Assembly: GCA_036000865.1 (NCBI GenBank)
Contig: DASYUV010000002.1
Location: 4,431 to 68,430, forward strand
Direction: 5' to 3'
Length of the DNA: 64,000 nt
From: Candidatus Binatia bacterium
GTDB lineage: Bacteria > Desulfobacterota > Binatia > UBA9968
Below the pieces are notes generated by a model. The model did no database searches, was not told the origin of the DNA, and saw only the letters and a program-made list of their open reading frames with translations. A program made the position numbers and the translations under genes. This document shows, in pieces, positions 9,708 to 30,432 of the stretch. Numbering within the stretch: the stretch's first letter is position 1; every line of letters starts with the position of its first letter.

Positions 9708-9752
9708 GATCGAGGATAGAAGATCGCGATCCTCAATCGTCCATCCTCGATC
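9708..9752. repeat. GA-rich/CT-rich palindromic repeat, family C, copy 1 (closed hairpin)
   Basis: gatcgaggatagaagatcgc / gcgatcctcaatcgtccatcctcgatc form an imperfect long hairpin. It uses the same GAGGAT/ATCCTC word set as the copies at 27574, 28105 and 29086. Confidence 0.7.
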
Positions 9753-19807: not shown

Positions 19808-19840
19808 CAACACTCCCATACTCCAACACTCCAACTCCCC
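19808..19840 (-). repeat. ACTCC/GGAGU short-word repeat in an intercistronic spacer
   Basis: The plus strand reads caacactcccatactccaacactccaactcccc, giving several GGAGU words on the minus-strand mRNA just upstream of the ATPase start. A similar tract is at 30401-30432. Confidence 0.5.
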
Positions 19841-26574: not shown

Positions 26575-27564
26575 ATGGCGTATCGTTTGGCGCTTGCGAT
26601 TCTAAGCTTCTTAACCCTTTTCGCGGCGAATTCGCCTGCGAGGGCTCAAGAAAAACTCCGGCTCGCCTGGGCCGGCTTTAGCCCGACCAATAGCGCTATC
26701 TGGGTCATCGAAGATCGCAAGCTCATGCAAAAACAGGGAGTCCAGCCGGAAATCATCGCCATCAGTGCCAGCCCGACCGTGCTCCAGGCACTGCTGGCGA
26801 ACGAAATCGACGCCGCCAGTATTTCAGTGACGACACTTACCAGCTCGCGCCTCGCCGGCGCCGATACGGTGATGATCGTCGGCGTGGTTCCGACATTCGT
26901 CGACCACATCGTTTCATTGTCGAATGTTACTGCAGTCGAGCAGCTCAAGGGCAAAACGGCTGGGGTCAACCGCTTAGGCAGCACGTCTGACCTAGGATTA
27001 CGGCTAGCGCTAAGAAAACTTGGCGTTGACCCGGAAAAGGATGTAAAGATCATCCCCACAGGCGGCACCGCAGAAAGATTTGCGGCGCTTTCAAAAGGCA
27101 TAACTCAGTTCACGATCATCCCGGAACCCTTCTTGACCCAGGCGGAAAAACTCGGCTTCCGAAATCTTTACAACATCAGCGACCTCAAGATTCCATTCTG
27201 GTGGAATGGTATCCTGAGCCGGGAAGCAATCATCAAGAGCAAACGGCCGTTGATACAAAAACTCACCCGCGCAATGGTTGAAGCGATCCACATCATCAAG
27301 ACCGAGAAGGAATACGCAAAATCGCTTATCAAAAAGAATCTAGGAGTGGCTGATCCGGAAGGTCTCGAAAGAGCGTACAAGGACTACTCGAATGCCTTTC
27401 CGGAAGTTCCCTATCCAACCCCGGACGGGGTCAAAACCATGCTCGATGACTTGGCGCGCGCAAATCCCAAGGCCGCGAGTGCGGATCCGAGAACCTATGT
27501 CGACCTCAGTCTCGTCGCCGAGCTGGAAAAATCGGGATTTATTAAACAATTATACCGCAAGTGA
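26575..27564 (+). CDS. NMT1/THI5-like ABC substrate-binding protein (nitrate/sulfonate/bicarbonate type), orphan
   Basis: Signal peptide MAYRLALAILSFLTLFAANSPARA. The C-terminal ELEKSGFIKQLYRK is shared with three paralogs in the window. Confidence 0.85.
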   Translation: MAYRLALAILSFLTLFAANSPARAQEKLRLAWAGFSPTNSAIWVIEDRKLMQKQGVQPEIIAISASPTVLQALLANEIDAASISVTTLTSSRLAGADTVMIVGVVPTFVDHIVSLSNVTAVEQLKGKTAGVNRLGSTSDLGLRLALRKLGVDPEKDVKIIPTGGTAERFAALSKGITQFTIIPEPFLTQAEKLGFRNLYNISDLKIPFWWNGILSREAIIKSKRPLIQKLTRAMVEAIHIIKTEKEYAKSLIKKNLGVADPEGLERAYKDYSNAFPEVPYPTPDGVKTMLDDLARANPKAASADPRTYVDLSLVAELEKSGFIKQLYRK

Positions 27565-27573
27565 AGGTAAGGG

Positions 27574-27660
27574 GCCGAGAATGGCCGATCGAGAATGGAG
27601 GATCGAAAGTGCTGAGTAAAGCTAAACCGAGGATAGAGGATTGAAGATCGAGGATGGATA
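27574..27660. repeat. Family C repeat, GA-rich arm (left arm flanking the four-helix-bundle gene)
   Basis: gccgagaatgg..gatcgagaatggaggatcg...ccgaggatagaggattgaagatcgaggatgg. It is complementary in word content to the CT-rich arm at 28105-28140. Confidence 0.7.
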
Positions 27661-27673
27661 ATCCGCGAAGCGC

Positions 27674-28063
27674 TCACTGCCGACTGGCTGAGCGACAGAA
27701 GTCATCCGAGCGCTGGATCATACGATTGAGCATTGCACCGACCTTTTGCCAAGAATCGTCCAGAGAACGATATTGATTTCGGTCCAGATAGCCACAATCA
27801 AATGCGTGATCGAGCCACGCTTGCGTCTCCATTGCCTCACCTAACGCCTCGTCGATCTTGTTGATAAACGCCGCTGGATATCTTCGTCGAGCCCATGCTT
27901 CGGCGATCATTGCGTTGACGGCGCGCGACGAGCGGCGTATCTGATCCGTTAAAGAGAACCTTTCTTCCGGCGGAAAGCTCTTGGAGAACACGAAGATATT
28001 TCTTGCCTGTTCGCGAGCCAACTTATAAACCCCCAAGTCTCGGAAGCTCCTTATTTCGGCCAT
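27674..28063 (-). CDS. Four-helix-bundle protein (23S rRNA intervening-sequence protein family)
   Basis: 129 aa. MAEIRSFRDLGVYKLAREQARNIFVFSKSFPPEERFSLTDQIRRSSRAVNAMIAEAW... is the characteristic TIGR02436/PF05635-type sequence. Confidence 0.85.
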   Translation of the reverse strand: MAEIRSFRDLGVYKLAREQARNIFVFSKSFPPEERFSLTDQIRRSSRAVNAMIAEAWARRRYPAAFINKIDEALGEAMETQAWLDHAFDCGYLDRNQYRSLDDSWQKVGAMLNRMIQRSDDFCRSASRQ

Positions 28064-28104
28064 CGTGATTTGTCCCCTCCTAATACGCTGCAGCTCAGTG
28101 TCTT

Positions 28105-28140
28105 ACTCGATCCTCTATCCTCTATTCTCAATCCTCGACC
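28105..28140. repeat. Family C repeat, CT-rich arm (right arm flanking the four-helix-bundle gene)
   Basis: actcgatcctctatcctctattctcaatcctcgacc. Confidence 0.7.
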
Positions 28141-28234
28141 CGTTAATTCGAGTTTGGATTTTTTCTCCTGTTACGATAAGTGAAGATTTTCCAATCTCAC
28201 TTTACAATCAGTGAAGTCAAGGGAGGCAATACCC

Positions 28235-29068
28235 ATGGCAGACATAGTCTTGAAAGACGAGCACGAGCTACTACGACCCGGGCTCGGTCGTCTCAAAGGC
28301 AGAGTGGCGATTATCACCGGAGCCAATAGCGGCATCGGCCGCGCCACCGCGCGGCTGTTCGCGCGCGAAGGCGCCAAGGTCGTTTGCTGCGACATTCAAG
28401 AAACCATCTCACCGCGGATCGACCACCTCATTAAGGATAAAGAAGGCGGAGAAGCGGTCTTTGCCACCATCGACGTCATCAAGCAGGAGGACTGCGACCG
28501 CATGGTCAAAACGGCGCTCGACAACTTCGGTGACGTCGATATTCTGTACAACAACGCCGGCGCCGGCATTCGCAAGAAGCTGCACGAGCATACAGACGAG
28601 GAATGGAACTTCGTCCTGAATACCAATTTGAATGCGATGTTTCGCGGCGCGCGCGCGGTGCTGCCCCACTTCATCAAGAAACAAAGCGGCAACATCATCA
28701 CCACCGCCTCGACCTTTGGGCTGTTAGCCTCTCCGGAATATCCCGGTTACTGCGCGACAAAAGCGGCGATCATTAACTTAACTCGCGAGATGGCGCTCGA
28801 CTACGGCCCGCTCGGAATCAGAATCAACTGCGTCTGCCCCGGCGCCATCGAAACGCCGCGCTTCAGGGGTTTTCCGCCGCGGGCGACTTTAGGCGAAGGC
28901 ATGACGGAAGAGCAACGAAAAACCATGGGTGGGACCAACAAGGCGCTGCTGCGCATGGGACGCCCAGAAGAGATCGCCTACGGCGTGTTGTTCTTAGTTT
29001 CGGACGAAGCGTCGTTCGTGACGGGACACGCGTTGGTCGTCGACGGCGGACAGACGATCGATGCGTAG
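28235..29068 (+). CDS. SDR family oxidoreductase
   Basis: TGANSGIGRA, NNAG and YCATK motifs. ATG 28235 has GGGAGG 8 nt upstream. The ORF track starts at GTG 28211. Confidence 0.9.
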   Translation: MADIVLKDEHELLRPGLGRLKGRVAIITGANSGIGRATARLFAREGAKVVCCDIQETISPRIDHLIKDKEGGEAVFATIDVIKQEDCDRMVKTALDNFGDVDILYNNAGAGIRKKLHEHTDEEWNFVLNTNLNAMFRGARAVLPHFIKKQSGNIITTASTFGLLASPEYPGYCATKAAIINLTREMALDYGPLGIRINCVCPGAIETPRFRGFPPRATLGEGMTEEQRKTMGGTNKALLRMGRPEEIAYGVLFLVSDEASFVTGHALVVDGGQTIDA

Positions 29069-29085: not shown

Positions 29086-29150
29086 ACCGAGGATGGAAGA
29101 TAGAGGATGGAGAATCGCGATCTTCTATCCTCTATCCTCTATTCTCGACC
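29086..29150. repeat. Family C repeat, copy 4 (closed ~30-bp-stem hairpin)
   Basis: ccgaggatggaagatagaggatggagaatcgc / gcgatcttctatcctctatcctctattctcg. Confidence 0.8.
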
Positions 29151-30400: not shown

Positions 30401-30432
30401 TCCATCACTCCAAGACTCCAGTACTCCATCAC
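30401..30432 (-). repeat. ACTCC/GGAGU short-word repeat
   Basis: tccatcactccaagactccagtactccatcac, the same word family as 19808-19840. Confidence 0.45.

What the first reader, a model, noticed from the sequence alone, without database searches (positions are those of the whole stretch)
27574..28140. 23S-IVS-type four-helix-bundle gene sitting between the two arms of a split GA/CT palindrome
Family C repeats occur as closed long hairpins at 9708-9752 and 29086-29150, with a GA-rich arm (ccgaggatggaagatagaggatgg..) directly followed by its CT-rich complement. Between the SBP gene (stop 27564) and the SDR gene (start 28235), the same word set is split. A GA-rich arm lies at 27574-27660 and a CT-rich arm at 28105-28140. 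The 129-aa four-helix-bundle ORF, the family first found inside 23S rRNA intervening sequences, sits on the minus strand between them. This mimics the architecture of rRNA intervening sequences, where a long stem carries the ORF in its loop, but here it is in a protein-coding intergenic region. It suggests the palindromes are empty and loaded versions of one small mobile or RNase III-processed element. An alternative speculative reading is that the arms, packed with GGA words, act as binding platforms for a CsrA-like protein.
Basis: partly seen in the sequence, partly recalled or inferred. Interest (0 to 1): 0.6.

Follow-up and report, generated by a model that had tools for sequence, protein, structure and literature searches.

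The report
Heptamer-armed four-helix-bundle gene cassette
A small, strongly conserved gene of the "rRNA intervening-sequence protein" family sits between two mirror-image runs of the 7-base word GAGGATN; the same protein subfamily carries the same word in at least eight bacterial phyla, and the same word forms dozens of gene-less, fast-turning-over hairpins in this genome, so gene and hairpins look like one undescribed repeat system.

Summary
ORF 27674-28063(-) is a PF05635/TIGR02436 four-helix-bundle (4HB) protein. It is bracketed by tandem heptamer arrays: (GARGATN)x4-5 at 27627-27663, an extra array at 27575-27606, and (NATCYTC)x4 at 28106-28140. The arms pair in the computed fold of either strand.

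The genome holds about 45 closed GA/CT hairpins with the same word and the same handedness (47:0). All lie between tandem or convergent genes, none between divergent ones. Nine of its ten PF05635 genes are armed, each with its own word.

Among 19 congeners, 7 carry the cassette in the SBP-SDR gap and 12 do not; the tree needs at least 5 changes. The empty sites hold an unrelated octamer hairpin or nothing, not a closed GA hairpin. Two other Binatia carry the gene flipped in the same gap.

Of 74 homologues (61-84% identical, at least 8 phyla, many loci), 47 have GARGAT arms on both sides and 7 on one. Subclades switch to related words. Genomes with the gene often hold tens to hundreds of gene-less GA arrays; 243 of 251 sampled genomes of this phylum hold none.

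The word is conserved, but the arms show no covariation. I therefore favour sequence-specific recognition, probably by the encoded protein, over a plain RNA stem. RNase III processing is untested, and the CsrA idea is unsupported.

The parts
26575..27564 (+). Upstream host gene: NMT1-like periplasmic substrate-binding protein (SBP). Its stop codon lies 10 nt before the first array.
27575..27632 (+). Extra GA heptamer array (27575-27606, GAGAATG GCCGATC GAGAATG GAGGATC) plus a spacer. It has no partner of its own. The spacer resembles the 5' arm and leader of the co-directional cassette of another Binatia MAG (L031), so it is probably the relic of an earlier occupant of this gap.
   Evidence: shared with G024; local alignment score 27; 1 of 300 shuffles as high
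27627..27663 (+). GA arm: ccGAGGATA GAGGATT GAAGATC GAGGATG GATAATC. On the gene's sense strand it reads as the 3' arm (NATCYTC)n. It starts 11 nt after the ORF's stop codon.
27674..28063 (-). 129-aa four-helix-bundle protein (PF05635 / TIGR02436), pI 9.1, under strong purifying selection.
   Evidence: PDB 2rld and 2gsc, five chains deposited in each; dN/dS about 0.065
28064..28105 (-). 5' leader of the 4HB gene, with a Shine-Dalgarno AGGAGGGG (complement of 28073-28080).
   Evidence: read from the sequence
28106..28140 (+). CT arm: cTCGATCC TCTATCC TCTATTC TCAATCC TCGAcc. On the gene's sense strand it reads as the 5' arm (GARGATN)x4.
28235..29068 (+). Downstream host gene: short-chain dehydrogenase (SDR). 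In relatives a conserved promoter-like motif (GGTTGAAAT...GGGATAAGTGAAG) lies between the arm and this gene and marks the right edge of the variable gap.
29086..29150 (.). Closed gene-less GA/CT hairpin (4+4 units, -35 kcal/mol) between the convergent SDR and methyltransferase genes. The closest relative G024 has an octamer hairpin in this gap, and one octamer unit survives at the right edge in G000.
9708..9752 (.). Short closed GA/CT hairpin of the same family.

Best explanation
Region 27627-28140 is one unit: a PF05635 four-helix-bundle gene with a 5' array (GARGATN)n and a 3' array (NATCYTC)n on its sense strand. It is the intergenic counterpart of an ORF-bearing 23S rRNA intervening sequence. 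It occupies a hairpin slot directly after the SBP stop codon.

Shown:
- Gene and arms are inherited and conserved together, in this genus and in at least 8 phyla.
- The 6-nt word stays the same while synonymous sites are saturated and the leaders are unalignable.
- Protein subclades carry shifted words.
- The genome's roughly 45 closed GA/CT palindromes share the cassette's word, handedness, four-unit preference and type of site.
- Slots change occupant between genomes about 5% apart.
- The cassette was gained, lost or replaced at least 5 times in this gap and is flipped in two relatives.

Inferred:
- The word is a binding site read sequence-specifically, most likely by the basic 4HB protein itself (its relative Avd binds nucleic acid). 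Each paralogue would then have its own word.
- The closed hairpins would be gene-less members of the same system, analogous to REPINs around a RAYT gene.
- The inverted arms make a stem possible in DNA or in RNA of either strand, and they allow the gene to be inverted.

The enzyme that moves or copies the hairpins is unknown.
For: - Family and arms.
- Nine of 10 PF05635 genes in this genome are bracketed by inverted arrays, each with a different word. 17 of 20 PF05635 genes checked in five congeners are likewise armed.
- An unbiased scan for inverted arrays that enclose one ORF recovers 4HB genes and a single PF13366 gene.
- Of 74 homologues at many different loci, 47 have GARGAT on both sides and 7 on one. 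Subclades carry GTGGAT, GTGATT or GTGAAT. The word classes cluster on the protein tree: 9 changes against 17.7 in shuffles.
- dN/dS is about 0.065 and dS is at least 1.4 or saturated, yet the word is kept.
- GA arrays: 98 hits in G000 and 0 in 243 of 251 genomes sampled from the phylum. Among 26 gene-bearing genomes of other phyla, 24 have hits, 16 have more than 10, and the maximum is 497. Genomes with the GTGATT or GTGAAT type give 0, 0, 0, 0, 0, 12 and 0 and carry GTG words instead.
- Handedness is 47:0. The closed hairpins lie in 25 tandem, 10 convergent and 0 divergent gaps.
- Turnover. Flipped copies.
Against: - No binding or enzymatic activity is known for this family outside DGR Avd, and the protein has no catalytic motif.
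- Within the genus, GA arrays persist without the gene: G016 has 68, G018 55 and G045 33. None of the 20 PF05635 genes checked in those genomes has GA arms. The in-genus link is weak (Mann-Whitney p = 0.02, not corrected for phylogeny).
- Verrucomicrobial carriers have few arrays beyond their own arms.
- The abundant octamer hairpin family has no enclosed gene in this assembly.
- The clustering of word and protein clade could reflect co-inheritance alone.
- No matched gene-free controls were counted in Acidobacteriota or Planctomycetota.
- The loaded copy was never seen at a second locus within the genus.
Confidence: 0.55

Rival explanations
1. A pure RNA device, as in rRNA intervening sequences. 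The arms matter only as a long stem in read-through transcripts. RNase III cuts the stem and so separates or insulates the flanking messages. The word is the same everywhere only because gene and arms descend together.
For: - The stem forms in the computed folds of both strands.
- The Coxiella IVS has a 28-bp stem, is cut by RNase III and carries heptamers (PMC4990558).
- Most homologues sit co-directionally, directly after the stop codon of an upstream gene.
- The closed hairpins lie only where at least one flanking gene's 3' end faces the gap: 25 tandem, 10 convergent, 0 divergent.
- A few orthologues show paired variants, GACGAT/ATCGTC and GATGAT/ATCATC.
Against: - A stem would tolerate compensatory drift, yet the 6-nt word is held while dS is saturated.
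- Complementarity at variable positions is no better in the true register than after shifting by whole units: 0.75 against 0.73-0.79.
- Rare units do not co-occur between the two arms.
- There is no excess of G.U over A.C on the sense strand: 86 against 76.
- Here the gene is antisense to both neighbours.
Confidence: 0.2
2. The hairpins are mobilised by some other host enzyme, for example an IS200/RAYT-type or otherwise unknown ssDNA-hairpin transposase, or by replication template switching. The 4HB gene is a passenger, or a factor that acts after insertion, such as a nucleoid, RNA-stability or addiction function carried in the loop.
For: - GA arrays persist and remain numerous in congeners without the gene.
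- The octamer family thrives without any loaded copy.
- A second, unrelated gene family (PF13366) uses the same packaging.
- Incoming hairpins replace the centres of other palindromic elements, which suggests structure-targeted insertion.
Against: - It does not explain why one protein subfamily keeps one word across phyla, or why subclades switch word together with their genome's arrays.
- No candidate transposase was identified, but none was sought either.
Confidence: 0.17
3. Coincidence of two ordinary features. The hairpins are REP-like terminator or stabiliser elements, and a small stand-alone gene happens to lie between two half-sites.
For: The closed hairpins sit where terminators and REPs sit.
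Against: - The same arms flank the gene in 6 congeners and 47 of 74 distant homologues.
- Nine of 10 paralogues in this genome are armed.
- The reversed-pattern control gives 0.
Confidence: 0.03
4. The GGA-rich arms are binding platforms for a CsrA-like protein.
For: Each unit contains GGA.
Against: - tblastn finds no CsrA homologue in a 95%-complete assembly (best E 0.024).
- The GGA motifs lie inside the stems.
- Sister cassettes use words without GGA, such as CGAAATC, ATGGCNN and CGTGNNN.
Confidence: 0.02

Closest known systems
ORF-bearing 23S rRNA intervening sequences (Coxiella burnetii S23p IVS, Leptospira; Warrier et al. 2016, PMC4990558)
   Same: Both carry a PF05635-family ORF in the loop of a long stem formed by terminal inverted repeats. 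The unit is about 430-520 nt. Tandem heptamers lie beside the stem (GACAGAT in Coxiella). A mobile origin has been proposed, and the distribution is patchy.
   Different: - This one is not in an rRNA gene. It sits between protein-coding genes and, here, antisense to them.
- The arms are built entirely of phased heptamers.
- The ORF is under strong purifying selection, whereas the Coxiella ORF is decaying and not translated.
- It comes with dozens of gene-less hairpins of the same word.
- RNase III cleavage is not shown.
REP/REPIN elements with their RAYT gene (Bertels and Rainey 2011, PMC3116915)
   Same: - A single-copy gene is flanked by inverted copies of a repeat that is also dispersed as intergenic hairpins.
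- Each gene paralogue has its own repeat family.
- The gene stays at one chromosomal site while the hairpins turn over.
- Hairpin populations outlive loss of the gene.
   Different: - The protein is a four-helix bundle with no known nuclease or HUH motif.
- The repeat is a tandem array of a 6+1-nt word rather than a single REP palindrome.
- Dependence of the hairpins on the gene is not shown.
Dispersed four-unit heptamer arrays: GGGNATC in Xanthomonas and Nostoc (PMC4692102), GGACCGG and others in Geobacter metallireducens (PMC2700814), TAACTGA in Beggiatoaceae, cyanobacteria and Bacteroidetes (PMC4679880)
   Same: They show the same period of 7, a preference for four units, enrichment between co-oriented genes with depletion between divergent ones, and a cross-phylum distribution of a given word.
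   Different: Those papers do not link the arrays to PF05635 genes or to a hairpin-plus-gene cassette. The four-unit preference was attributed to G-quadruplexes, an explanation that does not carry over to G-poor heptamer words such as CGAAATC or TTTTGGA seen here.
DGR accessory protein Avd
   Same: It belongs to the same fold superfamily. The window protein matches PF22296 at 22.7 bits and NF033474 at 25.4 bits. Avd is a small, basic, nucleic-acid-binding oligomer.
   Different: Both scores are below the family cut-offs (40 and 80 bits). None of the four adjacent genes is a reverse transcriptase, and no template or variable repeats were looked for.

Membership tests
PF05635 / TIGR02436 four-helix-bundle protein | HMM score above the curated cut-off over the full domain | tested here: met
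   PF05635 scores 100.8 bits against 33.8 and covers profile positions 1-105 of 106. TIGR02436 scores 91.4 bits against 24. PDB relatives are 2rld and 2gsc.
23S rRNA intervening sequence (IVS) | Inserted in a helix (9, 25 or 45) of the 23S rRNA gene | tested here: not met
   It lies between an SBP gene and an SDR gene. No Rfam family matches the region.
23S rRNA intervening sequence (IVS) | Terminal inverted repeats form a long stem with the ORF in the loop | tested here: met
23S rRNA intervening sequence (IVS) | Excised from the transcript by RNase III | not testable with these tools
   Only two short metatranscriptome contigs without direction cover 27634-27873.
23S rRNA intervening sequence (IVS) | This organism's own 23S genes carry an IVS with the same arms | not testable with these tools
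   The MAG has no 23S gene. Searches of congeners failed twice.
REPIN/RAYT system | The gene encodes an HUH (Y1) REP-associated tyrosine transposase | tested here: not met
   The protein is PF05635 and matches no transposase domain.
REPIN/RAYT system | The gene is flanked by inverted copies of a repeat that is also dispersed as intergenic hairpins, with one gene per repeat family | tested here: met
REPIN/RAYT system | The repeat population co-occurs with the gene across genomes | tested here: inconclusive
   The link is strong across phyla. It is weak within the genus, where G016, G018 and G045 have arrays but no gene.
DGR Avd | Score above the NF033474 or PF22296 cut-off, and an adjacent reverse transcriptase with template and variable repeats | tested here: not met
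   The scores are 25.4 bits against 80 and 22.7 bits against 40. The neighbouring genes are SBP, SDR and a methyltransferase.
MITE / IS-type transposon | Terminal inverted repeats plus a target-site duplication | tested here: not met
   No direct repeat lies outside the arms. Loaded and empty alleles differ by wholesale replacement of the segment between the stop codon and the SDR promoter.
CsrA-binding RNA | A CsrA protein is present and the GGA motifs lie in loops | tested here: not met
   No CsrA homologue was found. The GGA motifs lie in the stems.

The most novel reading that the evidence does not exclude
PF05635 four-helix-bundle proteins are sequence-specific readers of 6+1-nt heptamer words. 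Each paralogue, together with its own population of inverted-array hairpins, forms a REPIN/RAYT-like replicator system that lacks any recognisable nuclease. The 23S rRNA intervening sequences are merely the copies that landed in rRNA helices. The word shift GAGGAT to GTGGAT/GTGAAT coincides with an Ile4-to-Ala change in two separate clades, which hints at a readable recognition code.
Probability: 0.3. Interest if true: 0.9.

Novelty: new variant of a known kind. Interest (0 to 1): 0.72.

Why it matters
PF05635 is a very large family whose only described setting, apart from DGR Avd, is the puzzling intervening sequences of 23S rRNA. Dispersed four-unit heptamer arrays have been reported in several phyla without any associated protein. 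This locus ties the two together.

One protein subfamily keeps one heptamer word across at least eight phyla. Genomes that carry the gene tend to fill with gene-less hairpins of that word. These hairpins swap in and out of intergenic slots between genomes only about 5% apart.

That makes a concrete hypothesis testable: the protein reads its word. It would explain both the rRNA intervening sequences and a widespread class of bacterial repeats. It could also yield a small, re-targetable nucleic-acid-binding module.

Tried and rejected
- Sense-strand RNA selection: G.U against A.C mismatches in 30 oriented closed hairpins gave 86 against 76 (p = 0.48), so no signal.
- Unit-by-unit pairing: complementarity at variable positions is no higher in the true register than in shifted registers. 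Rare units do not co-occur between the two arms across 47 loci.
- "Every GA-rich genome has a GA-armed gene": rejected for G016, G018, G045, G019 and G044.
- "The empty site is a closed GA hairpin": rejected, because empty sites hold octamer hairpins or nothing.
- A loaded version of the octamer family: none found.
- Rfam: only sub-threshold miRNA look-alikes on the closed hairpin.
- PADLOC: nothing meaningful.
- Promoter and terminator consensus scan: at chance level.
- 23S IVS check: the MAG lacks a 23S gene, and the searches in congeners failed.
- RNA-seq: only two short contigs from metatranscriptomes, with no ends or direction.
- The pattern GTGRWT was too loose, since it also catches GTGGTT arrays.
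- My slot query was pasted incomplete, so only 8 of the 22 planned slots were examined.
- The whole-region fold z-score is not significant. Only the arm-to-arm duplex is.

Full report
**1. What is there**

An NMT1-like substrate-binding protein gene (SBP) ends at 27564, and a short-chain dehydrogenase gene (SDR) starts at 28235. Between them lies a 129-aa ORF on the minus strand, 27674-28063. It matches PF05635 (23S_rRNA_IVP) at 100.8 bits against a cut-off of 33.8, and TIGR02436 at 91.4 bits. It falls below the cut-offs for the DGR Avd models. Its nearest solved structures are the uncharacterised proteins 2rld and 2gsc, each deposited with five chains. Its pI is 9.1.

The flanking words are phased tandem heptamers:
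- GAGGATA GAGGATT GAAGATC GAGGATG GATAATC at 27627-27663.
- A second, partnerless array at 27575-27606.
- TCGATCC TCTATCC TCTATTC TCAATCC TCGA at 28106-28140.

The arms are 81% complementary over 31 nt and 88% over 24 nt. The MFE and centroid folds of 27560-28150 contain the long-range stem on both strands.

**2. The closed palindromes**

The genome holds about 100 strict arrays of at least three units. There are 44-47 closed GA-then-CT hairpins and roughly 30 lone or degenerate arms. Four units per arm is the clear mode: 31 arrays of four, against 13-19 of three and 3 of five.

The stems are 6-bp helices interrupted at every seventh base. The order is always GA then CT, 47 to 0. The hairpins lie between tandem genes (25) or convergent genes (10), never between divergent genes, and mostly 5-40 nt from a stop codon. 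Published heptamer arrays show the same pattern (PMC4692102).

Two tests for a selected RNA stem were negative:
- G.U against A.C mismatches on the sense strand gave 86 against 76.
- Complementarity at the variable positions is no better in the true register (0.75) than after shifting by whole units (0.73-0.79).

The arms behave as independent draws of one degenerate word.

**3. The gene family in this genome and genus**

The genome has ten PF05635 genes. Nine are bracketed by inverted short-period arrays, each with its own word: GARGATN, GTRAGGG, TTTTGGA, CGAAATC, GAAGTCR, ATGGCNN, CGTGNNN, ATCTGAR, and the period-9 word TTGGAAC. The most abundant period-7 word families in the genome are those with a 4HB gene.

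An unbiased scan looked for inverted arrays that enclose a single ORF. It recovered five PF05635 genes (C2, C72, C153, C155, C168) and one PF13366 nuclease-fold gene with period-9 CACGAAG arms; an ArsR-like ORF and one dubious ORF were the only other enclosed reading frames of about 100 aa or more. In five congeners, 17 of 20 PF05635 genes checked are armed in the same way, and orthologous paralogues keep their words.

**4. The orthologous gap**

Nineteen congeners have the SBP-SDR pair:
- Seven carry GA arm, 4HB on the minus strand, CT arm. The G012 copy is frameshifted and the G024 copy is C-terminally truncated.
- Eight carry a closed octamer hairpin, (TGGAGTNN)3-4 with its complement.
- Four carry no such hairpin.

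On a tree of the flanking genes, the loaded state needs at least five changes. Three strongly supported sister pairs differ in state. Everything between the stop codon and the conserved SDR promoter-like motif is exchanged wholesale, without a target duplication.

In the genus, the GA-type gene occurs only in this gap. Two further Binatia MAGs (L039, L031) have it in the same gap but flipped, co-directional with SBP and SDR. In G000 and G024, the extra array plus spacer at 27575-27632 resembles the 5' arm and leader of that flipped form. This looks like the relic of an earlier occupant.

The orthologues give dN/dS of about 0.065, with dS at least 1.4 or saturated. The protein is functional, and neutral non-coding sequence should be scrambled at this distance. 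The heptamer word is not scrambled.

**5. Beyond the genus**

Seventy-four homologues, 61-84% identical (four from Bacteroidota at about 45%), were found. By record title they come from Binatia, Verrucomicrobiota, Acidobacteriota, Planctomycetota, KSB1, Rhodothermota, Calditrichota, Chloroflexota and others. They sit at many different loci, usually directly after the stop codon of a co-directional gene.

- 47 have GARGAT units upstream and their complement downstream.
- 7 have them on one side only. Several of these loci are cut short by contig ends (L049, L100) or had a partial protein match (L102).
- Small clades carry GTGGAT/GTAGAT (5), GTGATT (4) or GTGAAT (3).
- The Bacteroidota carry TTGGCA.

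The word is always on the sense strand 5' of the gene. The leaders between arm and start codon are unalignable. Word classes cluster on the protein tree: 9 changes against 17.7 in shuffles. Both GTG clades share an Ile4-to-Ala change.

**6. Gene and gene-less arrays**

- Pattern GARGATN x3 gives 98 hits in G000 and none for the reversed control.
- 243 of 251 genomes sampled evenly from the phylum have none, and the rest have at most 9.
- Of 26 gene-bearing genomes from other phyla, 24 have hits and 16 have more than 10. The highest counts are 260, 360, 185 and 497.
- Verrucomicrobial genomes whose homologue has GTGATT or GTGAAT arms give 0, 0, 0, 0, 0, 12 and 0. They carry GTG words instead.

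Within the genus the link is weaker. Genomes with an intact gene have 98, 56, 173, 24, 24 and 1 hits. Those without have 68, 55, 33, 31, 28 and downwards. A one-sided Mann-Whitney test gives p = 0.02, uncorrected for phylogeny. None of the checked PF05635 genes in the array-rich, gene-free genomes has GA arms. Arrays can therefore outlive the gene.

**7. Turnover of the closed hairpins**

The closed GA hairpin at 29086-29150 is replaced by an octamer hairpin in G024 (95% identical flanks), G018 and G012, and by a GTTCAAT hairpin in G017. One octamer unit survives at the right edge in G000.

Seven further G000 GA slots were examined. G024 keeps a GA hairpin in three and has a different palindromic element in four. 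G016 keeps GA in three and has an octamer hairpin in one. In one slot, three close genomes have three different occupants. In another, the GA hairpin replaces the centre of a MITE-like element.

The slots persist while their occupants change quickly. New hairpins seem to land in, or replace, existing palindromes.

**8. Reading**

Three facts point to the word, rather than the stem, as the selected feature:
- The sequence is conserved at saturating divergence.
- There is no arm-to-arm covariation.
- Word and protein clade co-vary across phyla.

The simplest reader of that word is the encoded basic 4HB protein, which would make the system REPIN/RAYT-like. This step is inferred. No activity is known for the protein, arrays persist without the gene, and a different mobilising enzyme is not excluded.

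The RNase III reading remains possible, particularly for co-directional copies. The CsrA reading is not supported.

**9. Literature**

Tandem heptamers in the Coxiella IVS, its RNase III excision and the proposal of a mobile origin are published (PMC4990558). Dispersed four-unit heptamer arrays are described in Xanthomonas and Nostoc, in Geobacter and in Beggiatoaceae, without any link to PF05635. Two full-text searches found no paper that describes PF05635 genes bracketed by inverted heptamer arrays outside rRNA. Earlier notes of this scan report the same layout in many other genomes. I treated those notes as leads only.

Noticed in passing
genome contig C95:8582-9031 (outside the window); gene-less copies at C27:2332-2568, C38:12324-12633, C255:7542-7863, C261:11542-11758 and others: A second kind of armed cassette. 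Inverted period-9 arrays (CACGAAGNN)x3 enclose a 120-aa PF13366 (PDDEXK_3, GxxExxY) gene at C95. Many shorter copies with the same arms enclose 160-260 nt and no ORF.
   Followed up: partly
window 30405-30428 and 19818-19833; genome-wide 125 arrays: An octamer hairpin family, (TGGAGTNN)n with its complement. It is about as abundant as the GA family and has a handedness of 61:1. It occupies the SBP-SDR and SDR-methyltransferase gaps in relatives. No copy in this assembly encloses a gene.
   Followed up: partly
genome C30:20700-20870 (G000 and G016) against G024:C251:8095-8245 and G024:C246:4025-4245: A MITE-like element with ends GCAGGCTGCTGAAAAA...TTTTTGAGCAGCCTGC. In G000 and G016 its centre is replaced by a GA hairpin, whereas G024 has the intact element.
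   Followed up: partly
L039 (DASTOD010000389.1) 1380-2020 and L031 (DASWHT010000226.1): These carry the same SBP-SDR gap and the same 4HB subfamily, but the gene is in the opposite orientation to the window. This fits either inversion between the inverted arms or a second insertion.
   Followed up: partly
window 28141-28234 and the orthologous gaps: A conserved motif, GGTTGAAAT-N17-GGGATAAGTGAAGCGAAGAACTTCACA, lies upstream of the SDR gene in most congeners. It looks like a promoter plus a small leader hairpin, and it marks the right edge of the variable gap.
   Followed up: no
G003, G010, G023 and L031 cassettes: The last 5' arm unit plus the leader reads TTGAGG-N17-TATAGG/TATACG. The arm may therefore supply the -35 box of the cassette's own promoter. 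In that case the cassette's own mRNA would lack the 5' arm, and only read-through transcripts would form the stem.
   Followed up: no
protein alignment column 4: Ile4 is present in 47 of 48 proteins with GARGAT arms. It is Ala in both the GTGGAT clade and the GTGATT/GTGAAT clade, whose words share the A-to-T change at word position 2.
   Followed up: no
L037, L047, L062, L069, L077: In some Acidobacteriota, Planctomycetota and Calditrichota the arms are expanded to 10-20 or more units. In L077 both flanks carry GA units in direct rather than inverted order.
   Followed up: no
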